64,000 bases of DNA, from the IMG/VR virus record IMGVR_UViG_3300044615_000294, positions 27,342 to 91,341 of that record. The stretch is one strand, 5' to 3'. Origin of the DNA: a virus. A program made the translations under genes and the position numbers. Below, one piece after another: positions 25,090-50,678 of this stretch; positions within the stretch are counted from its first letter, which is position 1; every line of letters starts with the position of its first letter. The notes beneath the pieces are model-generated. The model did no database searches. It was not told the DNA's origin and saw only the letters and a list, made by a program, of their open reading frames with translations.

Positions 25090-25107
25090 TCTTCCCCTTA
25101 TTTTTTT
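25072..25107. terminator. Bidirectional terminator between convergent gene blocks
   Basis: AAGGGGAAGA-gataa-TCTTCCCCTT flanked by an A run and a T run. Confidence 0.8.
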
Positions 25108-28100: not shown

Positions 28101-31100
28101 AAGTCTAATGCTATTTGAGATTTTTTATCAGCAACCTTTGCAGTTATTTTTCTGATCTCCTCTAATATTCTTTTTCTTTCAGCATAAAACTTAGATGTAT
28201 ACGCTGTTTTAAAATTAGACCTTAAGAATTTATCAATCTGCTTTTGATATTCATTTTTAGTTTCCCCTTCTTTAGGTTCAGCTTCCGGGTCTATACCTTT
28301 GGCTATCAATCTATTATGAAAATTATCTAGATCTTTTTGTACTCTATCTGAATCTATATCATAGTCATACATGTTTCTTGACAGCTCTCTGTGTTTTTTT
28401 CTTAGCAAAACTCTTTGAAGTTCTTCACCTTCTTTTGGCTCACCTTGTAAATTGTATATATCAAATAATCTGTTGTACTCTAATCTTGCTTGTTCTTCTG
28501 AATCATTAAAGTCATATAAGTCTTCTAAGTCTAAAAAGTTTACATTCTTTAATGTATTCATTTTAGATAAAGCATTTTGCCTTTCTACATATGAATCAAA
28601 AGCAATTTTAGGAGAAATTGTTATTTCTTGTCCTGTAAAAGGATCTGTTACTACAGCTCCTGTATTCCAAATTTTTTGAATGTCATAGAATTCTTTTGTA
28701 TATCTTCTATGCATATACTTTTCTTCAAAGTCTTGAATAGCTTGATAAGCATCTTTCATAGCCTGCTTATCATTTTTAGCCCTAGCTTCTTGAAAATTAT
28801 TTTGAAGTTTAGCTAAATCATATCTATAGTTTTTAAACTTATTCTTAAATGTCCAAACTTCTTTTTCTTGAAAGTCTCCATTGTTATCCACATAACCAAC
28901 TTTATCTAAAAACAATAGCATGTCACCAAGCTGATTTGTTTTATATGGTTGATAACCAACAGCATTTAATAATGGTAGTAACTTATATGTTATTTCATCT
29001 GCCTGATCTTGTGCAGCTTGTTGAGCTTCAAATATTTTAGTCTTTACAAATCTTGTAAATGAACCAGCAATTGGATCATCCATGTTTGCATACGGAGTAA
29101 TAAATGCTGTGTAGAATGATAAATCTCCTCTCTCCCCTCTTAAGTATTCTTCAATTTGTTTTTTACCTAAGCGTTTAAACATATACTCATTTACTGCTTT
29201 AACAACTAGCTTAGCTCTTCTAGGAGTTATATCAGTTAACTTAAGGTCTTTCAATGTATAGGTCTCTCTATCTTCAGTGTTAATTACATTTTCTATAAAG
29301 TTATTTACATCTTCTTCAGAGTAACCTTCTGCTTTTAAAATTATACCAACTCTTTCTTTTAAACTTTTTTCAATAGAATCTTGCATTAACTCTGTTTCAT
29401 CTGCAAAGAAGTCAGAGATAAACTTAAATTCTATTTCCGCTATTTTTTTATTAGCATTTTCAACTGAGTTTTGTATTGAGTTAAGAGTCTTATAAAACAA
29501 AGTTTCCTTATCAAGAGGTAAATCTTTTAACTTATCAAGCAGAACCTGTTGATTTTGTAAAGATGTTTTATAATAAATAACTCTTGAAATATTTTCATTA
29601 GTTTGACTTTCTACTTTTGTCAAGTCATCAAGAATTTTTTCAATGCTTTCAACAAATGTTTCTATTTCATTTAATGAGTTTGTAAGTGCTAATGCTCTAA
29701 GTCTTGTTTCAGATTCTATATCTTCTACAGCTCTAATAACATTTTCTGGATCTATATCTTCTGCTTTTACATTTACTGTTTGATACTTAGAAAGTTCTTC
29801 ACGGATGTAATTTAAAATTTTTGTTCCGCCACTTTTAACTAATAGGTCCTTTACTTTAAATGGAACTTGCTTCAAACTATTAAGCTGACGCATGTTATTA
29901 TCATAGATTCTATTAATCTCTTCTTGTAATCTTTCAACTGGAATACCTTTAAGCTCATTAATCCTTCTAGCTACTTCACTTTCTAGTTTTTTAAACTCAG
30001 GATTATTAACATTAAAAATTTCAAAAGATTCAATCTGAAACTCCTCATTAGCAAGCATATTGGCTAATTGATCTAAAGTAGTACTTTGACTTAGTTTATT
30101 TAAATTAATCTTTGCTGCCACCTTTGGACTAAATGCTTTTCTAATAACTTTCTTAATAGCAAACATTAGTTTATCTAAGAACTTTTTAAAAGCTGAAGAT
30201 GGAGCTGTCCCCTTTCTTTCAATAGAGGTAACTAATGCTTCCCTCATAAATGCTTTTGATCCCTTTTGAAGTTTGGGATATAGTCTTTCTATATATGCTA
30301 TAACATCCATACCTTCTGGAGTCATACTTAATTCAGCATATAGATTATTAAATAGCTCAGGGTTTTCTTGTTCAATACCTTTTATTAAAGGATGTGCAAA
30401 TTCGTGTAGTACATTATCTACTGATAGATTACCTTCTACAAAATATACTTTATTGCCAAAGAAGAATGCTGGTTCTCCATCATATTCTGTTGCAGTATTT
30501 TTTAATAATATTTCTGCAGCTTCAGGAGTTACTAACTCCCATTCTACATTCATGGCATCTGATAATTTATCAGCAAGCGTAGTAGCAATTTCTATTGCTC
30601 TTTCACTTTCAGCATTATATGTATCTGCAGAAGCTTCTTCAGCTGTCATTCTTGTTACAATAGCAGCTTGTCTTCTAAACTCTGCTTCTGTAATGTTTGG
30701 ATCCACACCTAATGTTTCTTCAGAGTTTCTGCCAAATAAATAATCATCTGTATAATCTACACCTGCTCTTTTAGCATCTTCCTCTTGTATCTTTCTAGCC
30801 TCCTCTTCATATAATTCTTGTTCAGGAGTTTTCTCTTTAAACTCTGGTTTTATATAAGCCCCTGTCTTAATTATATTTTCTAAATCTGACACAGGTTTAT
30901 TTGATTGAGTAGCATCTACAATTCTAGACTGCGCTCTTTCTATTTTACCTTCAATGTCTAATTTACCTTTAACCTTTCTAAGACCCCAAGTATTTAAATC
31001 TGCTTGACCAATTTGTTCTAGATTGTATAACATGTATACTGTCGAAATATTATTGGCTTTGTTATAGTTATTTTTTGTAGAGACAGCTTTCATCAAACTA

Positions 31101-31333
31101 ATCTTTTGACTGTAGCTTATCTCTTTAGGGAAACTTTTACCAATTTCTTCTTTAACTTTAGAAATTGGAACTAAACCTAATGCTTCTTTAACATTTTTAT
31201 TTTTAATGAAATCATTATAGCTAGGTGTTTCACTATTAAAAAATTCCTGAATAAGATTAGAGACTTTTGTTTCTCCAAAATCTTTTACCATTTTTTGTAC
31301 ATCAGGATCACCAAAGTTTAAACAGAATGACAT
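25106..31333 (-). CDS. Giant virion (probably ejected) protein with zincin motif and LysM domain
   Basis: 2075 aa; HEFAH at 30392-30406; LysM HEYKRGDTFESIAKRY...LEPGDKITV at 25958-26086; hydrophobic helix near C-terminus. Confidence 0.75.
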   Translation of the reverse strand: MSFCLNFGDPDVQKMVKDFGETKVSNLIQEFFNSETPSYNDFIKNKNVKEALGLVPISKVKEEIGKSFPKEISYSQKISLMKAVSTKNNYNKANNISTVYMLYNLEQIGQADLNTWGLRKVKGKLDIEGKIERAQSRIVDATQSNKPVSDLENIIKTGAYIKPEFKEKTPEQELYEEEARKIQEEDAKRAGVDYTDDYLFGRNSEETLGVDPNITEAEFRRQAAIVTRMTAEEASADTYNAESERAIEIATTLADKLSDAMNVEWELVTPEAAEILLKNTATEYDGEPAFFFGNKVYFVEGNLSVDNVLHEFAHPLIKGIEQENPELFNNLYAELSMTPEGMDVIAYIERLYPKLQKGSKAFMREALVTSIERKGTAPSSAFKKFLDKLMFAIKKVIRKAFSPKVAAKINLNKLSQSTTLDQLANMLANEEFQIESFEIFNVNNPEFKKLESEVARRINELKGIPVERLQEEINRIYDNNMRQLNSLKQVPFKVKDLLVKSGGTKILNYIREELSKYQTVNVKAEDIDPENVIRAVEDIESETRLRALALTNSLNEIETFVESIEKILDDLTKVESQTNENISRVIYYKTSLQNQQVLLDKLKDLPLDKETLFYKTLNSIQNSVENANKKIAEIEFKFISDFFADETELMQDSIEKSLKERVGIILKAEGYSEEDVNNFIENVINTEDRETYTLKDLKLTDITPRRAKLVVKAVNEYMFKRLGKKQIEEYLRGERGDLSFYTAFITPYANMDDPIAGSFTRFVKTKIFEAQQAAQDQADEITYKLLPLLNAVGYQPYKTNQLGDMLLFLDKVGYVDNNGDFQEKEVWTFKNKFKNYRYDLAKLQNNFQEARAKNDKQAMKDAYQAIQDFEEKYMHRRYTKEFYDIQKIWNTGAVVTDPFTGQEITISPKIAFDSYVERQNALSKMNTLKNVNFLDLEDLYDFNDSEEQARLEYNRLFDIYNLQGEPKEGEELQRVLLRKKHRELSRNMYDYDIDSDRVQKDLDNFHNRLIAKGIDPEAEPKEGETKNEYQKQIDKFLRSNFKTAYTSKFYAERKRILEEIRKITAKVADKKSQIALDLAELYKTRFNLSTSTSDANGQPNGLNLSPEQINLLKKIEDEIVRLEEQFDRKTGLTKDQTSRYDSYIAKAAAGTQLTPEERKDYAEILSIKNEMGLTPAELAALKSRFAELRELESKIPTDYYLEAFNYAIRDMELPEMTTDNADKWINGENLVKALENPEFAKWYGRNHYQKEVYDVDLNRNVIKNFRIAAWTMKIPNNPDHYVVTEIIDPLTKTERKIIGRPAGKYTKSRIKSEFLTIPRGESWDNYVGTIVDNKGNYLPREYNIGDPNSAFDKKYQNEEYEEMKNAGGPEFDLLNAITESMIQIQKNKPVSSRLYLEMPRFRKRGNLEYVASGEAKENLIDRVGGFKGLWKTWFGKDVDDAEFGFNHDVNFNLVPTDLDGRPVNKVRIRGLYNLDQKRVSKDVLRGMYDYLLSLEEQKVLLENEPIAKALESVLSQNGIKDLTNIDQQEFQRTRKRKFLSKDDNRRLGAVKHQVKKIFYGKTTGTFDEENAWLTKIIQGLFRRSSRAFIAFDPQSAIKNRWGMLYQNAIYAAGGKNVTPMSLAKGYAKAKQSAMFWVFKDVYEQGIKSADIQLVERMDPTAMFGKNFGKSSSRSKLKDLADLTYAYDFRRTMELEAALEMFWGMMYNKYIPQAGSSEDIAYADAWETDDRGILKLKDGIDPMYDYKKVEHEYKRGDTFESIAKRYNITAEQVKKRSGITDISKLEPGDKITVGNMEGFLNMKFLLQSAQKKTTGLMDVFDTPQAEKYLGYRAFTFYKRFATGMFLDKYQIDTDKGNLGGYVYNWDTNTLDKGYYMNTMQNALRLIRSVGKDTAIMTEDEKAAAKKVIIENVGYFLLAMIIGSWYFGYDPDDEDKWKKLKARATTTQGQLENHLLYLLIMTKMENESFIPVYLPEQGTKYFKTTTIALDNTVVLYTKIGQDLYNIGAGNEGEARYSQDVGPYKWQRQGQYKLWNHLGSMYGLKGKNVIDLGIEGQENFDEGAIWAIKKYQMFENLK

Positions 31334-31338
31334 AATCT

Positions 31339-34300
31339 TTATCTTTTACATTTCATATAATAATCTAGAGCATCCATTATATCTAGATCTGGATTTTTAA
31401 CTTCTTCATTTGCAAACCAATCTTTAAACTCTTTTGAATTTAATACAATGGTTTTATTTTGATTTTCCAAAGTTAAATTATTTTCTTCTTCTTCTTGACT
31501 AAATAAATCTAATTGTTCTCCTGGTCCAGGTTTTTGAGTACCTCTAAGCTCTTCTCTAACTTCCATAAGTAATTTTGGAAACTCTTTACCCCATTTAGTT
31601 TTATCTTGAGTATGTGTAAGAGTAGCATTACCTGTAGCAAGTAATTTAGCAAGGGCATCTGGATTTTGTTCAAAAGAAAGTGTAAGTATATTTTTCATTA
31701 CTCCTGATGAATCTCTATCCCAAGTTGCAGTTGATAAATCTTTAATTTTAGCTCCTAAACTTTTTGCTTGAGCTCCAGTTGCAGTTTTTAATTTTTCAAG
31801 TATCTCTAAATTTTCTTTACTTGCAGGAGCACCTAATAAAACAGCATTTGTAAAAAATATTTTCATAGCTTGGAAAGCACCTTCAGGAGTTCTGAATGTT
31901 TGACCATTAAGCGTTACAGCTCTGTCAGCAAAATTACTTAACTCAGCATTTTCTCCTGTACCAGCATAAATATTGATTTTAATATCAGATCCTGGTAAAT
32001 TAGTACTAGGTTGAGTAGTAATTAGTTTATCAAAATTCTCATTAAATACTATATTAGAAGGTATTGGTCCTGCATTAATAAACATATCTGCCATTTCTTG
32101 ACCTGTATAACCATTAAGATTAGTTCCAGAGTAATCAGATACTAAAAATTCTTTAGTTGGATTTTCTTTAGCATACTCATACAACTTTTTAACACCCTCT
32201 ATAATTTCTTGAGGAGTTTTACTTTTCTTTTTTCCAGGACTAGTTACAGTAGTTATACCCCATGCTTTTCCTGAATCAGACAATCTATTATCCATTTTTT
32301 CACCTTGCTTAACACCAGCAATTCTGTATGCAACTAATGCTGCTCCTCCTGTACCTTTAGAAGGATTTCCATTAATACCAAGTGGATTAGAACCAAATAC
32401 AAATATTTGATTAGGCTGTAAACTTGTTACTTTTCCTGAATAAGTTTTTCTTTCAGTAGGTTGAGTAGTAGGTGCAGTAGCTTTTCTCCAAGTACCGATA
32501 GGTTGACCATCAATTTTTATCTCAGAATAATTATATCCTTTAGCTTCAAGATTTTGATACAATCTTTTTTCACCAGTATTATAACTACTTGAATCTATGT
32601 AAGCTTTATTATCTGTAAGAATAGTAGCTCCAGCTTCTATGGCTTTAATTGCTTCTCTGATAGTTTTATCTTGTTCTCTTTTAACAACGGTTGCATCACC
32701 TCTTAGTCCAGGAACAGATACAAAGATTACATCTGTACCACTATATTTACCAGTATTTGCTAAAGTACCAGCTTGTTCTCTATAGATCTGTGTAGTACTA
32801 CGTTTACCATCTTTACCAACTATACCTTCTCCAAAACCAATAAACTGTGTAGCTATGCTCGCTTTTGTTACAGCTTTAGCATCTTTAACTCCCGCTTGAG
32901 GAATAACTGTAAATCTGTCTTTCTTTTCAAATGTTGGAGTAGTAGATACAAATGCAGCTGATACAAAGTTTTTAAAGATTCTATTTCTAGGATTCATACT
33001 TATATTAAATACTCTATCCATGTATCTTTGTTTATCTTCAAAGTTTTGGTTGTTAAAGTCTACTGCTGCATTATTCATAATTGCAACATAGTCTTCAAAT
33101 GGTAAGATTTCATTAAAACCAAATCTACTATACCCTACTCCATTCTGATATACTGCAACAAGTGGTAGTGCACGGAACATGTCACTGATGTACTTATTTT
33201 GTATTGGATCAGCTACTTTAGATACATTAGGATCAGCTAGATCTTTAATGTTTTGATAGTATTGTTCTGCCACATTTCCTTTACTTAATAATCTAGAATT
33301 ATTTAAAGTAAGAATTTTCTGACCATCTTTAACTTCTGGAATAGATAGTTGTGATAATAAACTATATTTATCTTTTAACTCAGGATGTTGATTTATAATA
33401 TCAAAAATATCTTCTGCAAATGAGTATCCTGTATTTTGGAAGAACACATCTTTTGTAAAGTATTTAGCTAAAATATCTGAAGGAATGTTTAACAAATCTT
33501 TTTCAGATTGTACATACCCCACCATATAATTTTGGAACACAGAATTAACCATGTTATTTTTTATATCAGATATGAATGTTTCAGTATCACCAAATCTTTT
33601 TACTATTTGAAAACTATTAGTCTTTATAAGACTTATAATGATATCACTTATGTCTTTTGAATTTCTTAATGGAAACACTGGCTGTACTAAATCCTGAACA
33701 ATTTGATTGTCAAAAAATGTAGATAAGATAGATTCTTTTCTTAAAGCTTTTACTACTTTACCTTCTACTCTTGAGTCATTTTCAATTTCATCAAGAAGTA
33801 CATTTCTATTAATTACTTGCTGTAAAGTTTTAGATATTGCAGTATCCGGATTAGATAATCTCATTAACTCTTGGTATCCTGAGAACTGTTTTTCTAATTC
33901 TAATACATGAAGTAATGTAGCAATTTGATGATCTCTAAATTTAGGGTCATTTGGATTATCAAGAATTTTATTTAAATCTTCAATATTAAATTGCCCATCT
34001 TCATTTAAGATGTTACCTTTTTCTATAAGAGCGTCTAATGCTTTTTGTTCTTCTCTAACTAACTTTGGTGCTTCTTTTGAATCAACAATAAATTTTGATA
34101 ACACTCTAGCTGCTGCAACTTCTTTATCAGGAATTTTTATTTCTAGACCACTTTGACTAATTTTAGTTCTAGGTATACCGCTGTTGTCAGTAATAAGATC
34201 TGAGTAAGAACTTTTTAAAAGTCTTTGTTCTTTTGCATACTCCCTTACTAATGGTTGTGACAAAAACTTAATTGCATATTCTCTTGTAACTCCTGACTTA

Positions 34301-37300
34301 AATAACATAGCCATTAACCCAATCATTTCTTCATTACCTTGGATAAAGAATATCCATGCATTTTTCTCAACATCCACAGAACCATTCATTAATTGTGAAT
34401 ATAGTTCTGATATTAAATCTCCATCTACTGTAGTAATATCTGAAAGTGATATTCTACCATCTTTAGTTTTATTATGAGGTAATAATATTCTTGATTCTCT
34501 TCCTTTTTGTTTTTTATAGGTGTATGTTTTAGGCATTGCTGCACCTAAAGTATTTAGTACCGGGTGTAAAGCATTGTAGATAGCTACAATACCCAATACC
34601 CTCTTACCAATCATATTTGCTTCATGCTTGTGTAAGTTGTATAATGGCTCTAATACTCTAGTGGGGCTAATAGCTTTTTCACCTTTTGTGTTTAGTCTTC
34701 TATCTTCACCATGATAGTTTTTAAATCTATCATAGTCTGTTACCTTGTCTTCTAATTTATCTGCCAATTCATCTTTCAAAAGATATGTAGCATTTGGTCT
34801 AACAAGAGATGCATAGTTCTCTGGTAAACTAAGTATGTTAGATAGGCTAGTAATTAGTTTATTCTCTAAAGCTGCCTTTTGAGTACTCAGTAATCTAGCA
34901 GTCATTTGCTTTCCTTCTTCTGTATCTTTATTTTGATCAATAAGATTTTGAAGTCTCTCATTAGACATTGCTGATTCTATAAACTTTCCAGATTTATCCA
35001 ATGATGGCATAAATGTAGTAAGTTTATCAACGTCAAAGTCAGCTCCTGACTTAGCAACTATTTCTGATGGTGGTATAATAATTGGACCAGCAGCCTCATC
35101 TAAGAACTCATATACTTCCATATATTCCATAGAGTTAAGGCCTTGCACAGGAATCCTAACAGCAATCATGGTAATTGCTTTTCTATTAGCTCCATCATTT
35201 GCATTTAACCATTCATCATCTTTAATAGCCTGGTTTAGCCTTTCTCTTGTACCAATTTTTTCCCCTTTGTAATCTAAGTTTAAAAGATTAACAAAGTCTC
35301 CCTGAAGAGCAATAGCAACTTTCATTGCTGAAGTTCTATCTTTATCATAGTTATAGAAAGGTAAGTTATTAGTTCCCATGAACTTTCTTACTTGTTCTAC
35401 ATCAGCTTTATCAAATTGAATTTGATTATCCCAGATACCATTAGTCATTGCACTAGATACCTGTACTAATGCTTCACCTTTGATTTTTTGTCTTACTAAT
35501 CTTTTTTCAATTAATGAAACAATAATTTTTTCAATCTCATCTGCTCTTAAATGGAAAGATAAATCTGTTTTCAAAGAGTTATCTGGATTCATATTGATAA
35601 ACTCAATATGGTGTTCTGGGATATTCTTTCTACCCAACTCTCTTTGTACAAGCTCTAAGAAGTTTTTAAAATTTCCAATGTATTTACCATCTTCAAACTT
35701 ATAACCAATCTCATTAAGTAGTTCCATTTTTAAGAACTCACCATATGCATCTACTGCATCTTCATAATCTTTAACTAAAACTTGATTTTTAACTGTAAGT
35801 TCACCATTTCTATATAAGTTAGATAGGATAAGTTTTCTTAACTGAGTAGCAAATACTGTTTTGTTTTTATAAGATACAGGAACTTTAGTAACATCTTTAA
35901 GATACTCAAGGTATACTGTGTTTGGAGTAAACTTAATATCTGTCTTTAATGATTTTTGTTCATCATCATTATAAATTTTATCAGCTACTGCTTTTCCTTT
36001 TTCATTAACCTCAGATGTAACACTACCAACTTTAGAACCAGTCTGGAAAGTAACATACTGAATGTTTTCCTTAATCATTTGCTTATGTAAAGATTCTAAA
36101 TCAGAATTCTTTATCATTGATGGAATAAGAGGAGCTAAGGCAAACTTATGCATTGCCATTACTGGTAGTGATGTATTAGCCAAGTGTCCAAAATTTTGCA
36201 CTTTATATACCGGGAATGCTTCAATAATATCAGAATACTTAACAGGTTCTTTTCTTATTACCTTTACATATAATTGTTCTTGTAAATCACTCCACTGGTT
36301 AGATGCAATTTTAAGATTTCTATAAGCATCAAATGTAATCCATCCTTGACCATCTCCTTCCTCCATTTTTCCATAAGGCTTAAGATCCTGAGCCACACGC
36401 ATTTCTACTTCCTCAGATAGTTTATCAGCTGGAACTTTTCCTTTAAGTCTCTCTGTATAATCTTTTCTTAATTCTCTTTCAATTATAGGAGAATAAACAG
36501 ATTCTCTCACAATATCTTGAATAATGGCAGAATTAAATTTACCTGTGTAAGCAAGAGTTTCTAATCCTTCTGCTTGTGCATAAGATAATTTACCATTCAA
36601 TCCAGTTAAATAATTTCTTATTGACTGATCTGTTCTAATCTTTAATCCACCAGAAGTTCCACCAGAGTTTCTCTTGTGCATCTCTTCTTTTTCATGATTG
36701 TATTGTACAATATCACCATAGAATAAAGTAGCAGTTTCAAAATTTTGTACCCAAGAATTTACTGCATAAGCAGAAATTAAAACTTCTTCAGCTTTCTCTT
36801 CACCAAGATTAAATACAGCTAGTTTATCTAAAAGATCTGGGCTCAAATATTTAGCTTCATTGTAATAGTTTTGTAAATCTTTAACTTGATCAGTAAAATA
36901 TGTAGTAACTTCATCTAAGATCTTTTTATATAGATCTGGATTAGTTTTAATGTAATCTTCAAATCTTACATTAGGATTTGTTACTGCAGCTAATATTTCT
37001 TCTTTAGTATCTTTTGTTAATACATTATCAAATGCAGTAAAGTTTTCACCGGCCATAGTACCATCTGCAAGTTCTCTATTGTATCCAGCATATGTCTTAA
37101 ATAAATCTCTATTTGTTTTAAATTTATTTATTCTTTCTAACTCACCAGCAATGTATGGGATCATGTGATTTTTAACAAGATACTCATATGCATTACCTGT
37201 TGCAAATTTATCTGTGTCTACCCATAATCTTGTATCTTCACCTTTACCAACACCACCTAAAATACCACCTTCTCCATCTATTCTAGCTCCAAAAGATGAT

Positions 37301-40300
37301 GACTTAGATGCATGTCTCATAAACTCTATCATACCACCTTTAAGCATACTGTGTAGTTCTTGTAAGAACTTACCTCTAGCATCTAATGAGGTTGTATTTG
37401 TTCCATCCTCAATTGCTTCTACCTGAGTACCTGAGTTTATAAATAGCTGTAAAGATTTTCCTGTTCTTTTAGCCCAGTTGTATACACCATCTTCTGTATC
37501 ATTTTTATCAAACAAAGTATTGATAATACCAAGTCTAGTAGTAAATGAATTAATTAATGGATTTAAATAACTCATATATTCAAACTCACTACCTGGTGTC
37601 CACGCCTCTGATAAATTTTGCATTTTATTCAGAGCATATGTTATATAACTTATAGTGTGATCATCTATATGTTCAAATACAAGATTTTTTTCTGCATTTA
37701 ATACTGCAAAGTTTGCAGAGTCAAAACCATACTTAGCTTGTAAACCAAGAATTCTATCTATAGCATTCTTTTGTCTTACTACTTTTTCAGAAATAGTACC
37801 TGCACTAAATCCAGAACTTAACTTACCAATTGGATCTAACAAAAATTCATTTATTTCATCTGCTGTTTTTTGTGTTGTCTTTGGATTCTTCATTGCTTGA
37901 TCTATATCATACATATTTCTATAAATATATATTAGACCATACATTTGTTTAGCTCTCTGATTTAGATTCAGTTCATTTTTAATAATTGATAAATCATCTA
38001 AATATAAACCTATTGCTCTTGCAAATTCATAAGCTCTATTAGAATCTAATTTTCCATCTTTACCAAATTCTTCTACAACATCTGCAACTTTTAAGAATGC
38101 AACATTTTCTGCAGTTCTTCCAATGAATTTATTTTCAAGATCACTTTTAAACTTAGATTGAAACTTACGCATTAAGCTCATTGTTTCAATTGAAGCTTTA
38201 GTAACTTCAGCAATGTTATTATCAAATACTGTAGTTTGTAAATAAGTTACTCTTGTTTTTTGAAAGTCTTGCCAGAATGAGGTTAGAGTATTTACTTCAA
38301 ATCTATTTCTCTCATTAATAACAATCTTACCATCTTGAATTGTGTATCCCGGAAGCTTTCTTAGTAACTGTTTGAATTCTGGATAAATTGTTTGTGCAGC
38401 AGTTCTAATATTTTCAAGCATTTTAGATGGATTCTTTTCTCCATTAATAGCCCGAATAGTATTATTCCATGTAGTTGCAAAATCTGCAAGCTCTGGGTAC
38501 CCTAATTCATTAAGTACTACTTTACCGTTTTGCATTTTATGTAAACTGGATAATAAAACAAGAGTCTCTGAACTTGCTAAATCCAATAAAGACTTAGTTT
38601 GAGTATCATCTTTTATACCTAAACTTTCACCTTCAGGAGTATTTGTTTTTGGATTGCTGTTTCCTGTTTGAGATTGTGTAGTTGTATCATCTGCCTCTTC
38701 ATCTACCGCTTCTTTAAACTTTTTGTTTAGGATTTTATAATCACTATTCTCATTATGATATGCAATTACTCCTGACTTTTTATCACCCCAGTTTTTAAGT
38801 GCAGTTTCAAATATTCTTATTTTATTTTCAAGCTTTTCAATTTCTAATGCCTTAGTAGGATCATCTTGTATTTTTTCTAATTCTTCTTTAGCCGTATCTA
38901 ATTTATTTTGAAAATCTACTTTAGCTTCAGCATATATTTTTTCTTTAGCGTTTTCATTTGTAAAGATTCTTATAGTTGCCTCTTTAGTACCAGCTTCTTC
39001 AGAGTATTGATCTGCTCTTAATGAGAAGAAAGAGTCAATACTTTGTGATACAAGATTACTATCCTGTTTATCTAAAGCATCAATTGAAGTTTCAGATATA
39101 TCTTCTATACCTCTATTAAGTTCCTGAAAGTTGAATGTATTAACAAGCGGAGAATATTTATTTAAAAACTTCTGGCTATTCTTTTTATTCTTACTTGCTA
39201 AGTATAACTCATTAAAGAGTTTATCTTTAGTACTTTTAGATTTAAATAGATTATTTAAGAAGTTTAAAATCTTTCTAAATATACTATTTCTTTTAGGTGA
39301 GTTAGCTTTAACACCTTGTTCTTTTGCATAAGTTCTAAATTCTTCTGCAAGATATTCCTCAAGTTGTCTATATGTAGCTTCACTAAATTTAACTTTGGTA
39401 CCATCTAATAGTGTAAAGCTTCCTTTTTGTTTTGCAACTTCATCATATAGTGCCTTTCTTTCAGTTGGATTTAAGAATAACTGAGTAAATCCGTGCCATG
39501 CTTCATGGTATACATCTACTATACTACTTCTCTGACTAATTTGAATTTCACCATATTTATTATTTAACACAGATCCGTATGCAATAAACTTTGCATAAAC
39601 ATCTGAGTTAACTATGTTCACCATTGTCTTGAAGTCAATGAATTTAGAAAGTGGAGAATTGTTCCACCAAGTCTCTGCATTCTTTATATCTTCTGGAGTT
39701 ATATTTTCTAAACCTAAATTTTTACCGGATCTGTACATTTTATCATCATCAAACAAACTACCAAGACCTCCTTTTTCTGGTTCTGGTGTATTTTCAGGCG
39801 CAATAATATTATCTCTTTCTTCTTTTGGTGTTTTAACAACTGGTTCTGTAGCTGTCTCTATTTCAGTATCTTCCACAGAAAGTTCAGAAGGAATGCTAAA
39901 CTTAATATATGTGTTATAAAATCCAGGATCTGTGCTTTCAGATATTTTAATGTTTGCACCATCTAATGTTTCTAATAATGGAATATAGGGTGCATTATAT
40001 TCATCACTAAGTTCTCCTGTTTCTAAATTATAATCTCTATAAGCGTTTCTTGATAAAACATCTACATTATAAGTCATTTTAGCGGGATAAGGTTTACCCT
40101 TTCTACTATCACCTTTTGCATATCTTAAAACATCATATACTAAATCATATTTGTTATTTAGTTCATCATTTAATAAGGTATATGTAGCACCTGTTCCATC
40201 ACTATATGTTTTTTCAGTATACTGAAAAGTAAGTGCGTCTGTTCCAGCATTATAAAGTAATGTGTGTCTTCTTGCTGTCATTGCAGCTTTATCAGAAAGA

Positions 40301-41655
40301 AATTGATTTACAAAATCATACTTTTGTTTATTAGATAGTTTAGGATTTGTAAGGACTGACGTTATCTTTTGTATTAAAACTTCAGATAAATCTGGTTTAT
40401 CTAAAGGGTATATTTTACCATTTAATGTAATTTCCGCAGATATATTAGATCCTTTTTCAATTACTGGTGTAATAGTTTTAAATGTTGCATTGTTTACAAA
40501 AGGAAGAGACCTTAAGTTTTTTAATGATATTTTCTTTTGTGCTAAGCTTTCTGGAACACCCGCACTTAATTCAACAACATTTAGAGGGTTAATCTTTTGT
40601 TTATTTATGACAGCTTGTTTTACTTCATACAATTGTTTTAATTCTTCTTGTTGAAGTTTCTTAGCTTCTTCTACAGTAATCTCTAATTTTTCTGCTACCA
40701 TTTCTGGTGTTTGAATTTGATTACCATAACCATATTGATTTAAAGCATCATATTCTCCAGCAGCATTTTTATTTACGTTTCTTAAAAACTGATATACTAT
40801 CTTACCACCTTCTTCTTTAGTAGTAAATTCCCCCTCTTCTGTAAAGTGATAGTAGTTTCCTTCTTCATCTGATAATACTAAAGCAATTCTGTTTTGTGTT
40901 TCAACACCCTCTGGTCTATTTACATTAGTTATTGATTTAGTTCTAACTACATCTTGAGCAGTAGTGTTATCAATATCTGCTTGGTTTGTATCATAAAGAT
41001 CTAATAATCTAACAGGAGTCAGCTTTAATACTTTACCGTCAACCACTAATGTACCATCAGTTACTACAGCTTGCTCAGCACTAATTTTACCTTGTATTTT
41101 TTCTATAGTACTATAGATTCTATTTTTATTAGCATCCGGCTTTTCACTTAATAATTTTAATTTATTATTTGGGTTAAGTTGTATAAGTTGCTGGAAGGTA
41201 GTACTAAGCCAACCAAATGGTCTAAATCTAAAAGGATCTTTTATCTCTTTAGGATTTTCAATTTCAGTAGGTAAGCTTGAGATAAATTGGTTTGCTACAA
41301 GTAATTCCAGTTTGTCTTTATCAGACATCTCTGGTTTAAAATAGTTTAGTACATTCTTGAAACCATCCTTTTCATTTTTAAAATCTACAGCTAATGATTT
41401 TAATGCATCCACAGAAAAATCTAAAGCATCAAACTGTGATTTTACACCAACAGCTCTCATAATACCAGGTGCTTGCTGTAAAAATTTCATTGCTGTTGCA
41501 ACATCTTTTTTCTCAGCAATTTGTGTAAATAAATTTTTCATGTAGTTATTAGCATTAAAAGGCTCATTAGCCTCTAATGAATTCAACATGTTTTTATATA
41601 CATCTTTATATAAGTTCTCTACTTGAGTTGGTGATAATGCGCAAACTATTTTCAT
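31339..41655 (-). CDS. Virion-packaged DNA-dependent RNA polymerase (crAss-like) with zincin, macro-like and NADAR domains
   Basis: 3438 aa; RIPVQG and GADFDVDK (35026-35040) catalytic motifs, DGQGW; HEAWH at 39493-39507; NADAR-like segment ~31542-31977. Confidence 0.85.
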   Translation of the reverse strand: MKIVCALSPTQVENLYKDVYKNMLNSLEANEPFNANNYMKNLFTQIAEKKDVATAMKFLQQAPGIMRAVGVKSQFDALDFSVDALKSLAVDFKNEKDGFKNVLNYFKPEMSDKDKLELLVANQFISSLPTEIENPKEIKDPFRFRPFGWLSTTFQQLIQLNPNNKLKLLSEKPDANKNRIYSTIEKIQGKISAEQAVVTDGTLVVDGKVLKLTPVRLLDLYDTNQADIDNTTAQDVVRTKSITNVNRPEGVETQNRIALVLSDEEGNYYHFTEEGEFTTKEEGGKIVYQFLRNVNKNAAGEYDALNQYGYGNQIQTPEMVAEKLEITVEEAKKLQQEELKQLYEVKQAVINKQKINPLNVVELSAGVPESLAQKKISLKNLRSLPFVNNATFKTITPVIEKGSNISAEITLNGKIYPLDKPDLSEVLIQKITSVLTNPKLSNKQKYDFVNQFLSDKAAMTARRHTLLYNAGTDALTFQYTEKTYSDGTGATYTLLNDELNNKYDLVYDVLRYAKGDSRKGKPYPAKMTYNVDVLSRNAYRDYNLETGELSDEYNAPYIPLLETLDGANIKISESTDPGFYNTYIKFSIPSELSVEDTEIETATEPVVKTPKEERDNIIAPENTPEPEKGGLGSLFDDDKMYRSGKNLGLENITPEDIKNAETWWNNSPLSKFIDFKTMVNIVNSDVYAKFIAYGSVLNNKYGEIQISQRSSIVDVYHEAWHGFTQLFLNPTERKALYDEVAKQKGSFTLLDGTKVKFSEATYRQLEEYLAEEFRTYAKEQGVKANSPKRNSIFRKILNFLNNLFKSKSTKDKLFNELYLASKNKKNSQKFLNKYSPLVNTFNFQELNRGIEDISETSIDALDKQDSNLVSQSIDSFFSLRADQYSEEAGTKEATIRIFTNENAKEKIYAEAKVDFQNKLDTAKEELEKIQDDPTKALEIEKLENKIRIFETALKNWGDKKSGVIAYHNENSDYKILNKKFKEAVDEEADDTTTQSQTGNSNPKTNTPEGESLGIKDDTQTKSLLDLASSETLVLLSSLHKMQNGKVVLNELGYPELADFATTWNNTIRAINGEKNPSKMLENIRTAAQTIYPEFKQLLRKLPGYTIQDGKIVINERNRFEVNTLTSFWQDFQKTRVTYLQTTVFDNNIAEVTKASIETMSLMRKFQSKFKSDLENKFIGRTAENVAFLKVADVVEEFGKDGKLDSNRAYEFARAIGLYLDDLSIIKNELNLNQRAKQMYGLIYIYRNMYDIDQAMKNPKTTQKTADEINEFLLDPIGKLSSGFSAGTISEKVVRQKNAIDRILGLQAKYGFDSANFAVLNAEKNLVFEHIDDHTISYITYALNKMQNLSEAWTPGSEFEYMSYLNPLINSFTTRLGIINTLFDKNDTEDGVYNWAKRTGKSLQLFINSGTQVEAIEDGTNTTSLDARGKFLQELHSMLKGGMIEFMRHASKSSSFGARIDGEGGILGGVGKGEDTRLWVDTDKFATGNAYEYLVKNHMIPYIAGELERINKFKTNRDLFKTYAGYNRELADGTMAGENFTAFDNVLTKDTKEEILAAVTNPNVRFEDYIKTNPDLYKKILDEVTTYFTDQVKDLQNYYNEAKYLSPDLLDKLAVFNLGEEKAEEVLISAYAVNSWVQNFETATLFYGDIVQYNHEKEEMHKRNSGGTSGGLKIRTDQSIRNYLTGLNGKLSYAQAEGLETLAYTGKFNSAIIQDIVRESVYSPIIERELRKDYTERLKGKVPADKLSEEVEMRVAQDLKPYGKMEEGDGQGWITFDAYRNLKIASNQWSDLQEQLYVKVIRKEPVKYSDIIEAFPVYKVQNFGHLANTSLPVMAMHKFALAPLIPSMIKNSDLESLHKQMIKENIQYVTFQTGSKVGSVTSEVNEKGKAVADKIYNDDEQKSLKTDIKFTPNTVYLEYLKDVTKVPVSYKNKTVFATQLRKLILSNLYRNGELTVKNQVLVKDYEDAVDAYGEFLKMELLNEIGYKFEDGKYIGNFKNFLELVQRELGRKNIPEHHIEFINMNPDNSLKTDLSFHLRADEIEKIIVSLIEKRLVRQKIKGEALVQVSSAMTNGIWDNQIQFDKADVEQVRKFMGTNNLPFYNYDKDRTSAMKVAIALQGDFVNLLNLDYKGEKIGTRERLNQAIKDDEWLNANDGANRKAITMIAVRIPVQGLNSMEYMEVYEFLDEAAGPIIIPPSEIVAKSGADFDVDKLTTFMPSLDKSGKFIESAMSNERLQNLIDQNKDTEEGKQMTARLLSTQKAALENKLITSLSNILSLPENYASLVRPNATYLLKDELADKLEDKVTDYDRFKNYHGEDRRLNTKGEKAISPTRVLEPLYNLHKHEANMIGKRVLGIVAIYNALHPVLNTLGAAMPKTYTYKKQKGRESRILLPHNKTKDGRISLSDITTVDGDLISELYSQLMNGSVDVEKNAWIFFIQGNEEMIGLMAMLFKSGVTREYAIKFLSQPLVREYAKEQRLLKSSYSDLITDNSGIPRTKISQSGLEIKIPDKEVAAARVLSKFIVDSKEAPKLVREEQKALDALIEKGNILNEDGQFNIEDLNKILDNPNDPKFRDHQIATLLHVLELEKQFSGYQELMRLSNPDTAISKTLQQVINRNVLLDEIENDSRVEGKVVKALRKESILSTFFDNQIVQDLVQPVFPLRNSKDISDIIISLIKTNSFQIVKRFGDTETFISDIKNNMVNSVFQNYMVGYVQSEKDLLNIPSDILAKYFTKDVFFQNTGYSFAEDIFDIINQHPELKDKYSLLSQLSIPEVKDGQKILTLNNSRLLSKGNVAEQYYQNIKDLADPNVSKVADPIQNKYISDMFRALPLVAVYQNGVGYSRFGFNEILPFEDYVAIMNNAAVDFNNQNFEDKQRYMDRVFNISMNPRNRIFKNFVSAAFVSTTPTFEKKDRFTVIPQAGVKDAKAVTKASIATQFIGFGEGIVGKDGKRSTTQIYREQAGTLANTGKYSGTDVIFVSVPGLRGDATVVKREQDKTIREAIKAIEAGATILTDNKAYIDSSSYNTGEKRLYQNLEAKGYNYSEIKIDGQPIGTWRKATAPTTQPTERKTYSGKVTSLQPNQIFVFGSNPLGINGNPSKGTGGAALVAYRIAGVKQGEKMDNRLSDSGKAWGITTVTSPGKKKSKTPQEIIEGVKKLYEYAKENPTKEFLVSDYSGTNLNGYTGQEMADMFINAGPIPSNIVFNENFDKLITTQPSTNLPGSDIKINIYAGTGENAELSNFADRAVTLNGQTFRTPEGAFQAMKIFFTNAVLLGAPASKENLEILEKLKTATGAQAKSLGAKIKDLSTATWDRDSSGVMKNILTLSFEQNPDALAKLLATGNATLTHTQDKTKWGKEFPKLLMEVREELRGTQKPGPGEQLDLFSQEEEENNLTLENQNKTIVLNSKEFKDWFANEEVKNPDLDIMDALDYYMKCKR
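32007..32470. repeat. 14-bp in-frame direct repeat TAGGTTGAGTAGTA (encodes TTQP)
   Basis: Copies at 32007-32020 and 32457-32470, 450 bp apart. Confidence 0.85.
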
Positions 41656-41659
41656 CTTC

Positions 41660-44600
41660 TTAACAATCTAAGTCATCTAATAAATTATCTCTTGTATCTT
41701 CTTTTTTAGCTTGATCTTCTAAATCTTGTTGTCTAGAAGCAGCATCTTTGCCATATAATAAATCTGAAACAGTATCTGTAGATTCTTGAGTAACTCCTTC
41801 ACTCTCATCAACTACAGGACCATCTGTTTCTTCTCCACTAAACAATGTAGCTGCTGGTTTAAATTTCTTTTTAAATTCTTCTACACTCATTTCCATTTTA
41901 GTTCTTTTACCTTCTGGTTTAACAGTTATTCTATCTCCGGAAATTTGTGATATAACTGCTGTTTGATTAGCACTTAAAAACTTCCTTCCATTAGCTGTAA
42001 AGATATCACTTTCTGAGTAAACTTGATCACCTTCATTGTAAGTAATTATTTCCCCCTCTTCAGTTTCATCCTGTACTTTTAGAGATTCTTTTCTTGCTTC
42101 TATTAAATTATTTAATTCTGCAATCTGTTCTGCTGAATATTTTAAACTATTCATTGCAAGATCAACCATAAGAAGTTGTAACTCATCAAAGTCTGCTTTT
42201 TCAATTTTAGATTTTAAAGCATTAAACTCTTTTAAATTATTTGTTTCTCCACCTTCTTCCCCTTCTGGGTTTTCATCTTCATAATCTGTGTTTTCTACAT
42301 CATCTAGATTAGGATCAGTGATTATATCCTCAACAGTATTAGATGGTACTGTACCATTAAACTTAGGTGCTGTCTCAGGTATCTCAGCATTAAGCTTATC
42401 ATACATTTCTTGAGTTGGCTCTAAAGGAAATATAGTTTTACCTTTCTTTAATAGAGTTGGAGCACTAGGTCTTTTTGCAGTAAGAATTTTACCAGTTGTT
42501 ATATCTGAAGTAGTTTCAATAGGTATGATAGCTATCTCAGCATCTATACCAAACATATTTTTCAATAGTCTAGCATATACCATTTGTTGATAAGTATTCT
42601 CAATTTGTTTTGCGTAGTTCTTATTTTCAGAATTATTATAACCATTCCATTTGGCTGCCTCTCCTGTTTTAATATCAACAATTGTAAAATTACCTTCTCT
42701 ATCAACAAGAAGTAAGTCAATTTCTCCGGCTACATTTGCATCTTCATCATATACTATAAGACCATTTGCAACAACAATAAAATCACCTGTATCTATATAG
42801 TCTTGTATAGATTGATAAATACCATTTCTTCCATATAAACTATCAAATGCTTCTTGTGAAATTTTATTTAGATCTGGTTGAACTTTTTCACCACTAAAAT
42901 ATTTTTTAGTTAAGTCATCAATTACATTACCTCTATCTCTACCCCACTGGTAAGTAGCTTGTTCTGTAATAAAATTAATTGTTGCATCTCTTAAACCTTC
43001 TAAATCATCTTCTGGAGCTTTTGTTGTTTCAGGTAGTTTAACAAGTTCTTCATTAATCCATTTTTGTTGATTTGGAGTAATTTTATTTGGATTACCATTA
43101 TAAGCAGATCTTTCATTCCACTCTTCAAGTATATTGTTTAACTGTTCTTTAGAAGTTATTTTTTTAAGTCTAATTGCCTCAGTTAAAGCATTAAAGAATG
43201 CGAAGTTTAATCCCATAGTTGTACCACCAGAGATAGAAGAGTTTCTTATATTTTCCTCTGCCTTTCCTAATAACTCATTATAAGTTACTTCTTCTACATC
43301 AGCTTTAGTATCTGTAGAACTTTCCTTACTAGCTCTTTCAGAATCTAATCTTTGTTTTTGTTCTGGAGAAAGTCTATCCCACAGCTTAGGATTTTGTATT
43401 TTAGTATAATCTTCTGTTTCAATTAACTCTACAGTATCCCCTTCTTTTTCATATATTTCAGTTAACTCTTCAATATTTTTAGCTTTCAGTCTATCAAATG
43501 GACTCCAATTTCCTTTTTCATTTTTAATTTCCCATGTAGCAGAACCATCAAGAGAAGTTGTTACTCTAAGTTCACTAGTGTCTCCAGATGAATTAGTTAT
43601 TTTTACAGTTTCTCTTTTAACTGATATACGGCCATTATAATCATTTCTAGATGTAGCATCTGTAGAAGCAGGGGCCCTATTTGATCTAAAGTCATTTACA
43701 AACTTCTCTATAGCTTCATAAGATTTCTCATTAAATCCTGGAAGATTACTTGCTTTTAAAACATCAATAAAATCTTTAACAGATTGTCCTTCACCTATTG
43801 TTAAATTATAAGCAGCTAAAAGAACATCTTTTTTATCATATTCATATTTTTTACCCAAGAACTTTTGAATAACATTTGTTACCCTTCTAAGAATCTTCTG
43901 ACCAATTTTATATCCGGTTGGTAATGCTTCTATTCTTTCTTGTTCTTTCTGTAATTGATCAATTAATGCAAGAGCATTTTGCATTTCAGGTGTAAGAGAT
44001 TTACTAACTCTGCTCTTAACATAAGCTTCTAATATTGAATACTTTTCTTGTAGCTCTTTTAATCTTACCTCATCATTTATAGATTTGTTTTTAGTATTCT
44101 CTATAGCATTGATTTCAAAATTATATTGTTGTAGTACAGATTGAATTTGTTTATCAGTAGCATTCTCTGCTGATATTTTTTTACCATTAGTTAAAGTAAT
44201 CAATGGTGCAGCGGCAGTACCACCAGTTGTTGCAGCTTTTAACTTTTGTTCTTTTATGTACTCGTTAATAAGATCTAAAGCTTGCGGTTCACTTTTAATA
44301 AAGTTTACAAACTTATTTTCTAACTCATCATTAGTAAGGTTGTCTGGAAATAAATATTCATTATTTGGATCATCCCTATAGTCTTCAAATGCTGCTTTAA
44401 GTTGTTCTCTAAGTTCTTCAGGCATGTTTGCAATAGGAGTATCTGGAGTAAGTTCATCTATAGAAACTATACCACCTTCTACAATAACATTAGATGTTGC
44501 TGCTATTGATCCTTCTGCTGCCTCTGCTCTAAGTTGATCATACTTATCCTTAATTGCTTTAACTTCTACTGGATCTGGTTCTTCTCTATATGCAAAAAGT

Positions 44601-50645: not shown

Positions 50646-50678
50646 TGTGTTATAAGTTAAATTAAATTATTTACCTGT

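What the first reader, a model, noticed from the sequence alone, without database searches (positions are those of the whole stretch)
31322..41665. Only four cysteines in 7,744 aa of giant proteins, all at facing termini: possible head-to-tail covalent chain
Seen by reading the translations: the 2231-aa protein has one Cys, its last residue (41663-41665). The 3438-aa RNAP has two, Cys5 (41641-41643) and the third-last residue (31348-31350). The 2075-aa protein has one, Cys4 (31322-31324). The outer ends (N-terminus of the first, C-terminus of the last) have none. This is the pattern needed to link A-B-C linearly in gene order. Inference: disulfide (or metal) bridges join the ejection proteins into one thread for stoichiometric packaging and ordered passage through the tail, released on reduction in the cytoplasm.
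Basis: partly seen in the sequence, partly recalled or inferred. Interest (0 to 1): 0.82.

Follow-up and report, generated by a model that had tools for sequence, protein, structure and literature searches.

The report
Terminal cysteines chain crAss cargo proteins
Three giant proteins of this crAss-like phage, with its injected RNA polymerase in the middle, have no cysteine except one at each end that faces the next protein. Relatives keep this rule wherever the genes are separate and drop it where they are fused, which points to untested end-to-end disulfide links joining them into one thread of about 0.9 MDa.

Summary
A (2231 aa) has one Cys, its last residue. B (3438 aa, virion RNA polymerase) has Cys5 and Cys3436. 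C (2075 aa) has Cys4. Neighbouring genes carry about 1% Cys, so about 78 would be expected in these 7,744 residues.

The pattern is strongly conserved. In 350 homologues (about 925,000 residues) only 17 Cys are internal and none lies at an outer end. It also holds in 14 named Crassvirales and 72 non-redundant IMG/VR loci.

Gene rearrangements behave as a chain would predict. Fused A+B or B+C proteins lack Cys at the fused end, and five of seven A+B fusions have none near the estimated joint. Extra split-off links of 242-762 aa carry Cys at both ends. In crAss001-type phages A lies on the opposite strand and still keeps its Cys.

A control-tested model docks A's C-terminal tail on B's N-terminus (0.68 against best control 0.27), with both Cys in the interface. 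Cyanophage A4 gives a solved precedent, a gp27 Cys1715 to gp26 Cys5 disulfide, but it shows no detectable homology.

The best reading is a head-to-tail disulfide chain. The bond itself, the threading through the tail and the release by reduction are all untested. Two apparent splits without Cys exist. This scan has reached the same reading on other crAss genomes. No paper in the held library describes it for Crassvirales.

The parts
41660..48355 (-). Protein A, 2231 aa, first link of the chain. Its sole Cys is the last residue. It has a PD-(D/E)XK-like motif near residues 1877-1896.
   Evidence: All 117 Cys of 120 homologues (268,400 residues) lie within 13 residues of the C-end.
41663..41665 (-). 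Codon TGT for A Cys2231, the C-terminal residue.
   Evidence: This column is invariant in alignments A1 and A3.
41663..41809 (-). A C-terminal tail, residues 2183-2231, ending ...LLDDLDC. It is the predicted docking segment.
   Evidence: One search lists interface residues 2183-2200 and 2209-2231. Coordinates.
31339..41655 (-). Protein B, 3438 aa, the virion RNA polymerase and middle link. Its only Cys are Cys5 and Cys3436.
   Evidence: tblastn hits phi14:2 g066 and crAss001 gp50.
41641..41643 (-). Codon TGC for B Cys5.
   Evidence: Invariant in alignment A2.
41359..41652 (-). B N-terminal domain, residues 2-99 (MKIVCALS...). It is the predicted receptor for A's tail.
   Evidence: One search lists interface residues 2-18, 20-24, 42-68 and 93-99. 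Coordinates.
35026..35040 (-). DFDVD motif of B, residues 2206-2210. This is the DFDxD catalytic signature of crAss virion RNA polymerases.
   Evidence: D2206, D2208 and D2210 are invariant. The motif is described in the preprint 10.1101/2020.03.07.982082 (abstract; read).
31342..31452 (-). Conserved 37-residue C-terminal tail of B, ending ...ALDYYMKCKR. It is kept whatever effector cassette lies before it.
31348..31350 (-). Codon TGT for B Cys3436, third from the end.
   Evidence: 118 of 120 homologues have a Cys within 13 residues of the C-end.
25106..31333 (-). Protein C, 2075 aa, last link. Its sole Cys is Cys4. It carries HEFAH at residue 310 and a LysM domain at 1753-1792.
31322..31324 (-). 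Codon TGT for C Cys4.
   Evidence: 104 of 110 homologues have a Cys at residues 3-6; the rest are N-truncated gene calls.
48366..52181 (-). Two upstream cargo-like ORFs (759 aa and 500 aa) with no Cys. By position they resemble crAss001 cargo proteins gp45 and gp46 (homology not tested). They are not part of the chain.
   Evidence: The ORFs in the equivalent positions have no Cys in 9 of the 14 named crassviruses and 1 or 2 in the other five.

Best explanation
A, B (the virion RNA polymerase) and C are cargo proteins that are packed into the capsid and injected. They have been purged of cysteine, as is known for ejected proteins of other podophages.

The exception is one cysteine within 1-6 residues of each end that abuts the next protein. 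In the virion, A's C-terminal tail docks on B's N-terminal domain, and B's conserved C-terminal tail docks on C's N-terminus. Each joint is locked by an inter-protein disulfide: A Cys2231 to B Cys5, and B Cys3436 to C Cys4.

The product is one unbranched chain of 7,744 residues, about 0.9 MDa. It is the post-translational equivalent of the fused polyproteins that other crassviruses encode. Because the links sit at the very ends and no other thiol exists, the chain stays linear. It could then be packaged 1:1:1 and pass through the tail as one thread.

What is shown: the pattern, its conservation, and its behaviour on gene fusion and fission. What is supported by a model and by a solved analogue: docking of the A tail on the B head. 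What is inferred: the disulfide itself, threading through the tail, and separation by reduction in the cytoplasm.
For: 1. Pattern and statistics. Four Cys where about 78 are expected, all at the facing ends.

2. Conservation in 350 homologues down to 23-29% identity.
- A family: 117 Cys, all at the C-end, none internal in 268,400 residues.
- B family: 114 at the N-end, 118 at the C-end, 7 internal in 424,866 residues.
- C family: 104 at the N-end, 10 internal, none at the C-end in 231,502 residues.
- The peptide around the Cys diverges while the Cys stays.

3. Cultured crassviruses show the same pattern.
- phi14:2: g067 has Cys -1, g066 has Cys3 and -2, g065 has Cys3.
- crAss001: gp47 has -3, gp50 has 5 and -9, gp49 has 5.

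4. The pattern does not depend on gene adjacency. In crAss001, cr85_1 and cr128_1, gene A is on the opposite strand and keeps its C-end Cys. This excludes an explanation at the level of the gene junction.

5. Fusion and fission behave as predicted.
- Suoliviridae A+B fusions have no N-end Cys, and five of seven have none near the estimated joint. They keep the C-end Cys, which faces Cys3-5 of C.
- Intestiviridae have A with Cys -2 facing a B+C fusion with Cys3, and no Cys at the far end.
- Some IMG/VR lineages have extra stand-alone links of 242-762 aa with Cys at both ends. These are homologous to the C-terminal 120 residues of longer B proteins that have no Cys at that joint.
- In all 72 non-redundant IMG/VR loci, no chain whose first protein is complete at its N-end starts with an N-end Cys, and every chain whose last protein is complete ends without a C-end Cys.

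6. Docking model. The score was 0.68 against a best control of 0.27. That mark was reached by 58 of 80 solved complexes and 2 of 110 mismatched pairs. The runs share at least 54% of contacts and the partner's pLDDT is at least 68. The interface includes B residues 2-18 and A residues 2228-2231, so both Cys are in it.

7. Precedent. Cryo-EM of cyanophage A4 shows the gp27 C-terminal helix in a cleft of gp26, with a Cys1715-Cys5 disulfide (PMC12002296). In A-4L these are the sole Cys of the two proteins.

8. crAss001 virions do contain inter-subunit disulfides, in the tail and at the portal vertex (PMC10172136).
Against: - No biochemical or structural observation of the bond exists for any crassvirus.
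- Virions assemble in a reducing cytoplasm, so when the bonds would form is unclear.
- Two apparent splits lack Cys. In L072, A is split into 1613 + 789 aa with a clean ATGA overlap. In cr108_1, gp54 and gp53 are separated by 290 nt.
- Two A+B fusions have a single Cys near the estimated joint: cr4_1 Cys2180 and cr118_1 Cys2041.
- Intestiviridae B+C fusions carry 5-14 internal Cys, so the purge is not absolute.
- The docking tool reports no S-S distance. Its calibration counts hold only roughly because I supplied my own alignments.
- Two B homologues lack a C-end Cys (P0103, P0110).
Confidence: 0.65

Rival explanations
1. The facing termini do pair, but through a bridging metal ion (zinc or iron) or only non-covalently. 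In the non-covalent case the cysteines would act as a redox or metal switch, for example keeping the polymerase silent in the virion, rather than as a disulfide tether.
For: The docking model supports contact between the ends but not a particular chemistry. A's tail is very acidic (...LLDDLDC) and could help bind a cation. The cytoplasm where virions assemble is reducing.
Against: Each side supplies only one Cys. No second Cys or His is conserved near it, so a normal four-ligand site cannot be built. The solved analogue in phage A4 is a disulfide. crAss001 virions contain many disulfides.
Confidence: 0.12
2. The terminal cysteines bond to other partners. Candidates are homodimers (A-A, C-C), head-to-tail closure or polymerisation of B, or attachment to portal, ring or capsid proteins. 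They would not bond to the neighbour in the A-B-C order.
For: Sequence alone cannot assign partners. Other virion proteins of the window do have Cys. crAss001 tail proteins use disulfides.
Against: Every fusion removes exactly the two Cys that would face each other, and every fission adds exactly two. The first protein never has an N-end Cys and the last never has a C-end Cys, across 14 named phages and 72 loci. The A tail docks on the B head well above the controls.
Confidence: 0.1
3. There is no protein-level function. The pattern would come from chance, from relaxed selection at disordered termini of Cys-purged proteins, or from nucleotide signals at tightly packed gene junctions.
For: Cys purging of ejected proteins is known and needs no chain (PMC11445570; T7 gp15 and gp16 have none). 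The genes are 4-5 nt apart.
Against: Placement P is 5e-11, and the enrichment over background at the four ends has P of 1e-4. The pattern is conserved to about 23% identity while the surrounding residues change. It is kept when gene A is on the other strand. Outer ends never have Cys.
Confidence: 0.02

Closest known systems
Cyanopodophage A4 (Anabaena phage A-4L) pre-ejectosome, gp27-gp26 disulfide (PNAS 2025, PMC12002296)
   Same: The two are adjacent ejection proteins. The upstream one (1717 aa) has its only Cys three residues from the C-end, and the downstream one (1114 aa) has its only Cys at residue 5. Cryo-EM shows the C-terminal helix of gp27 inserted in gp26 and locked by Cys1715-Cys5. 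The geometry matches the A-B joint here: Cys -1 facing Cys5, with A's tail docking on the B head in the model.
   Different: No detectable homology: blastp E is above 0.1 and hhalign probability is 0.2%. A4 has one link between two proteins of a five-fold pre-ejectosome. Here there are two links (up to four in relatives), and the chain includes an RNA polymerase. The rule holds across a whole phage order and trades places with gene fusion. Neither the paper as read nor any other in the held library mentions that.
RNA-polymerase cargo block of cultured crassviruses: phi14:2 g067-g066-g065 and crAss001 gp47-gp50-gp49
   Same: B is homologous to g066 and gp50 (about 23% identity) and carries the DFDxD motif. 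The proteins are virion-packaged in those phages. They show the same terminal-Cys pattern.
   Different: Its B is about 1,000-1,250 aa longer and carries C-terminal effector cassettes. The structural papers as searched do not mention these cysteines.
Cysteine-free ejection proteins of Schitoviridae (N4 gp50-52, DEV gp71-73) and T7 (gp15, gp16)
   Same: These are giant injected proteins, including a virion RNA polymerase, with Cys frequency near zero. The published explanation is passage through the periplasm (PMC11445570; T7 checked).
   Different: Those proteins have no conserved terminal cysteines and no pairing. Here one Cys is positively kept at each facing end.
Fused RNAP polyproteins of other crassviruses (Suoliviridae A+B, Intestiviridae B+C)
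   Same: The same modules in the same order, joined covalently. The phi14:2 preprint notes such fusions and guesses that they are cleaved.
   Different: The link there is a peptide bond made by the ribosome. Here it would be a reversible bond made after translation.

Membership tests
Crassvirales virion RNA polymerase cargo block | The middle protein is homologous to phi14:2 gp66 / crAss001 gp50 and has the DFDxD catalytic motif. | tested here: met
   tblastn hits g066 (E 3e-19) and gp50 (E 3e-9) at about 23% identity. DFDVD lies at residues 2206-2210 and is invariant in 37 homologues.
Crassvirales virion RNA polymerase cargo block | Giant flanking proteins on both sides, downstream of tail and cargo genes. 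| tested here: met
   The ORF order on the minus strand is 1477, 1301, 902, 500, 759, A, B, C. It has the same layout as phi14:2 g071-g065.
Crassvirales virion RNA polymerase cargo block | The proteins are present in the virion and are injected. | not testable with these tools
   Shown by mass spectrometry only for phi14:2 and crAss001.
Disulfide-linked ejection protein pair (A4 gp27-gp26 type) | The sole Cys of the upstream protein is at its C-end and the sole Cys of the downstream protein is at about residue 5. | tested here: met
   A Cys2231 faces B Cys5, and B Cys3436 faces C Cys4. A-4L has -3 facing 5.
Disulfide-linked ejection protein pair (A4 gp27-gp26 type) | The C-terminal segment of the upstream protein docks into the N-terminal domain of the downstream one. 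| tested here: inconclusive
   The model supports it: score 0.68 against a best control of 0.27. That mark was reached by 58 of 80 solved complexes and 2 of 110 mismatched pairs. Contacts agree in at least 54% and partner pLDDT is at least 68. This is a model, not a measurement, and only the A-B joint was tested.
Disulfide-linked ejection protein pair (A4 gp27-gp26 type) | An S-S bond is observed in the virion. | not testable with these tools
   This needs non-reducing gels, cross-link mass spectrometry or cryo-EM.
Disulfide-linked ejection protein pair (A4 gp27-gp26 type) | Sequence homology to A4 gp27 and gp26. | tested here: not met
   blastp E is above 0.1. hhalign probability is 0.2% for the A family against gp27 and for the B family against gp26. 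The resemblance is analogy, not membership.
Cysteine-free ejection proteins (N4/DEV/T7 type) | Cys frequency near zero over the whole protein. | tested here: not met
   Internal Cys frequency is 0 to 0.004%, as in that class. One or two terminal Cys are strictly kept, which that class lacks.
Split intein / protein trans-splicing | An N-intein fragment at the end of the upstream protein and a C-intein fragment of about 35 aa before the Cys of the downstream protein. | tested here: not met
   The downstream Cys is at residue 3-6, leaving no room for a C-intein. Pfam finds no intein domain.
Bacterial lipoprotein (lipobox Cys) | A signal peptide of about 15-25 residues before the Cys. | tested here: not met
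   The Cys is at residue 3-6 with no preceding hydrophobic segment.

The most novel reading that the evidence does not exclude
Crassvirales may use a 'terminal-cysteine code'. Their cargo proteins would be joined after translation into one linear, redox-cleavable polyprotein of about 0.9 MDa, with more links in some lineages. This chain would be packed at fixed stoichiometry, threaded through the tail in a set order, and taken apart by the host's thiol reductases instead of by a protease. A disulfide at the extreme ends can stand in for a peptide bond, so gene fission and fusion in this block would be nearly neutral. That would explain why the block is cut differently in every family.
Probability: 0.45. 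Interest if true: 0.85.

Novelty: new variant of a known kind. Interest (0 to 1): 0.75.

Why it matters
Crassviruses are the most abundant viruses of the human gut. How they pack and inject about a megadalton of protein, including the polymerase that starts infection, is an open question. The crAss001 structural atlas could not resolve these proteins.

A rule this simple turns the question into gel, mass-spectrometry and point-mutant experiments on phages that are already in culture (phi14:2, crAss001). It would explain the puzzling variety of split and fused gene layouts in this block. It would extend a single structural observation in a cyanophage into a general way of building injectable protein chains. 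It also gives annotators a practical test for true gene ends and for which proteins belong to the injected set.

Tried and rejected
- Megablast of the region against the phage collection found nothing.
- PHROGs named only the C-terminal modules of B.
- One Pfam call exceeded the size limit and was split.
- A nucleotide-level cause at the gene junctions was rejected, because gene A is on the other strand in three Steigviridae and keeps its Cys.
- The synonymous-codon test was uninformative: TGT 246 against TGC 17 in these AT-rich genomes.
- Intein, lipobox and metal-site readings were rejected on spacing and on the lack of further conserved ligands.
- Homology to A4 gp27 and gp26 was sought and not found.
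- BLAST could not place the B|C joint inside the Intestiviridae fusions at E 1e-3, so loss of Cys at that internal joint is not shown.
The two B homologues without a C-end Cys (P0103, P0110) and the few truncated A and C calls therefore could not be traced to their contigs.
- The B-C joint could not be modelled, because only one complex job is allowed.
- Literature searches found no description of these cysteines in crassviruses.
Full report
**Observation.** The region holds three tightly packed minus-strand ORFs. A is 41660..48355 (2231 aa), B is 31339..41655 (3438 aa) and C is 25106..31333 (2075 aa). They are separated by 4 and 5 nt and lie in different frames.

A has one Cys, its last residue (TGT, 41663-41665). 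B has Cys5 (TGC, 41641-41643) and Cys3436, third from the end (TGT, 31348-31350). C has Cys4 (TGT, 31322-31324). A's N-end and C's C-end have none.

The plus-strand ORFs of the same window hold 70 Cys in 6,893 residues, or 1.02%, so about 78 Cys would be expected in 7,744 residues. P(4 or fewer) is 8e-29. Given four Cys, placing all of them within 6 residues of the four facing ends has P = 5e-11. Relaxed constraint at termini would not give four Cys in 24 residues either (P = 1e-4). The two ORFs just upstream (759 and 500 aa) have no Cys.

**What the proteins are.**
- B is a distant relative (about 23% identity) of the virion RNA polymerases of crAss-like phages: phi14:2 g066 and crAss001 gp50. 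It carries their DFDxD signature as DFDVD at residues 2206-2210. It also has an invariant HEAWH at residue 717.
- B's C-terminal part holds a NADAR domain (residues 3236-3359) and a second module (phrog_2072, residues 3075-3214).
- A has a weak PD-(D/E)XK match around residues 1870-1934, with an invariant GEID...D-x-K pattern.
- C has HEFAH at residue 310 and a LysM domain at residues 1753-1792.
- In phi14:2 and crAss001 the three equivalent proteins are found in virions by mass spectrometry. In crAss001 they are thought to be stored in the capsid and to leave partly unfolded through the tail (PMC10172136).

**Conservation.** Searches with B, A and C returned 120, 120 and 110 homologues, down to 42%, 29% and 23% identity.

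| Family | Residues | Cys at N-end | Cys at C-end | Internal Cys |
|---|---|---|---|---|
| A | 268,400 | 0 | 117 (all within 6 of the end) | 0 |
| B | 424,866 | 114 | 118 | 7 |
| C | 231,502 | 104 | 0 | 10 |

The members that lack the expected Cys are mostly gene calls cut at that end. The residues around the Cys change freely between subclades. B ends in ...YYMKCKR...RTSTDCQ...TSTECS...ILNKLC or ...NNIKCNL, and only the Cys stays. In the window's own subclade, a conserved 37-residue tail carrying the Cys is kept whatever effector cassette lies in front of it.

**Named crassviruses.** The same pattern holds in all 14 named Crassvirales that I fetched.
- phi14:2: g067 (1797 aa) has Cys -1. g066 (2180 aa) has Cys3 and -2. 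g065 (1421 aa) has Cys3.
- crAss001: gp47 has -3. gp50 has 5 and -9, plus one internal Cys. gp49 has 5.

In crAss001, cr85_1 and cr128_1, gene A lies on the opposite strand, away from B's start, and still keeps its sole C-end Cys. An explanation based on gene junctions (start, stop or coupling signals) therefore fails.

**Natural experiments.**
- *Suoliviridae.* These encode A and B as one protein of 4,460-4,950 aa. It has no N-end Cys and keeps the C-end Cys (-2 to -11). That Cys faces Cys3-5 of C in the five Suoliviridae records where C is annotated; in cr10_1 C is not annotated. By BLAST placement of the joint, five of seven A+B fusions have no Cys near it (the seven are the six Suoliviridae and the interrupted cr108_1). 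Two have a single Cys close to the estimate.
- *Intestiviridae.* These keep A separate (Cys -2) and fuse B to C. The fusion starts MSC... and has no Cys at its far end. In cr110_1 the annotated start is probably 14 codons too early, since an internal MSC lies at residues 15-17.
- *IMG/VR loci.* Among 79 loci found with the B profile (72 non-redundant), every A, B and next protein that is complete at the relevant end obeys the rule, apart from one B whose start could not be placed (L031).
- *Extra links.* Some lineages have extra stand-alone links of 242-307, 655 or 762 aa, each with a Cys at both ends. An example is B (4, -1), then a 252-aa link (3, -1), then a 1104-aa protein (3). These links are homologous (E 1e-8 to 1e-26) to the last 120 residues of longer B proteins that have only Cys5 and Cys -1.

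A break in the chain therefore comes with two new cysteines, and a fusion comes with none. In every locus the chain starts without an N-end Cys where that end is complete, and ends without a C-end Cys where its last protein is complete.

**Exceptions.**
- In L072, A is split into 1613 + 789 aa with an ATGA overlap and no Cys at the new ends.
- In cr108_1 the fused A+B gene is interrupted by 290 nt, with no Cys at the interruption.
- Intestiviridae fusions carry 5-14 internal Cys.

- The score was 0.68 (runs 0.68, 0.68, 0.74) against a best control of 0.27.
- That mark was reached by 58 of 80 solved complexes and 2 of 110 mismatched pairs. These counts hold only roughly, because I supplied my own alignments.
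- The runs share at least 54% of their contacts, and the partner's pLDDT is at least 68.
- The confident interface is B 2-18, 20-24, 42-68 and 93-99 with A 2183-2200 and 2209-2231. Both Cys5 and Cys2231 are in it.
- The tool gives no S-S distance.
- No similar complex is detectable by sequence, so recall from a solved structure seems unlikely, though it cannot be excluded.

**What is known.** Suppression of Cys in ejected proteins is published for N4-like phages and is ascribed to passage through the periplasm (PMC11445570). T7 gp15 and gp16 also have none. That accounts for the purge but not for the retained terminal Cys.

A lead from earlier notes of this scan took me to PMC12002296, which I read. 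In the cyanopodophage A4 virion, the C-terminal helix of gp27 inserts into gp26 and is fixed by a Cys1715-Cys5 disulfide. I confirmed on the A-4L record that these are the only Cys of the two proteins (1717 aa with Cys at -3; 1114 aa with Cys5). They show no detectable homology to A, B or C.

crAss001 virions contain many inter-subunit disulfides in the tail and at the portal vertex, so such bonds do exist in crassvirus particles. Seven literature searches found no mention of these cysteines in crassvirus cargo proteins.

**Reading.** The most likely explanation (0.65) is a head-to-tail chain, A-S-S-B-S-S-C. The links sit at the extreme ends and no other thiol exists, so the product is linear and cannot scramble. 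It is the reversible counterpart of the fused polyproteins of other families.

Packaging at fixed ratio, ordered threading through the tail and release by reduction are plausible consequences, but none was tested. Three rivals remain:
- a metal or non-covalent joint, possibly with a redox role (0.12);
- other bonding partners (0.10);
- no protein-level function (0.02).

**Verdict.** This scan has reached the same reading on other crAss genomes. I scored this window on what I tested here. It is a new variant of a known kind: one solved disulfide in an unrelated cyanophage, here extended to a multi-link chain obeyed across a phage order. It can be tested directly on cultured phages.

Noticed in passing
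window 31579-32433 (-), B residues 3075-3359; relatives P0003-P0120: The C-terminal part of the polymerase carries swappable effector-like modules. They sit between the conserved core and the conserved Cys tail. Here they are a NADAR domain and a phrog_2072 module. In relatives they include AlkB-like PF13532, ART-PolyVal PF18760, PF25176, kinase or zeta-toxin-like domains and a PIF1-type helicase. They look like injected counter-defence cargo riding on the polymerase.
   Followed up: partly
window 39493-39507 (-), B residues 717-721; window 30392-30406 (-), C residues 310-314: There are two HExxH motifs. HEAWH in B is invariant in 37 homologues. HEFAH in C lies in the same protein as a LysM domain (window 25958-26077). 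Zincin-type peptidase roles, either in cell-wall passage or in processing, are possible.
   Followed up: no
window 42554-42748 (-), A residues 1870-1934: Weak PD-(D/E)XK nuclease match (E 9e-4, below the Pfam cut-off) with an invariant GEID...D-x-K pattern across the A family. A may be an injected nuclease.
   Followed up: no
window 52233-54941 (-), 902-aa ORF: All 10 Cys of this protein lie between residues 515 and 634, several in close pairs (571/574, 601/604, 615/617, 630/634). This looks like a metal-binding cluster in an otherwise Cys-free virion protein. The neighbouring 1301-aa and 1477-aa ORFs have Cys only in close pairs (397/410; 304/316 and 541/552).
   Followed up: no
L072:2791-9998 (+): Protein A is split into 1613 + 789 aa with an ATGA stop/start overlap and no Cys at the new ends. 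This is the clearest exception to the rule. It could be a recent split, a non-covalent joint or an assembly error.
   Followed up: partly
L005:12921-24511 (+), cr108_1 gp54 and gp53: The fused A+B gene is interrupted by 290 nt. The downstream piece starts at a non-Met codon, and neither new end has a Cys. An intron or a sequencing fault seems more likely than a true split.
   Followed up: no
L073:8617-15266 (+); L024:19920-20678 (+); L060:19436-20359 (+); L038:21945-23912 (+): Some relatives have extra small chain links of 242-762 aa with a Cys at each end. This gives chains of four or five proteins.
   Followed up: yes
L095:729-1319 (+), T7 gene 14: T7 gp14 has a single Cys at residue 2, while gp15 and gp16 have none in 2,065 residues. 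No partner Cys is evident.
   Followed up: no
L010 and L013 (cr4_1, cr115_1): The cargo genes of these two Suoliviridae contain 4-80 in-frame stops each under table 11, consistent with stop-codon recoding. The terminal-Cys rule still holds.
   Followed up: no
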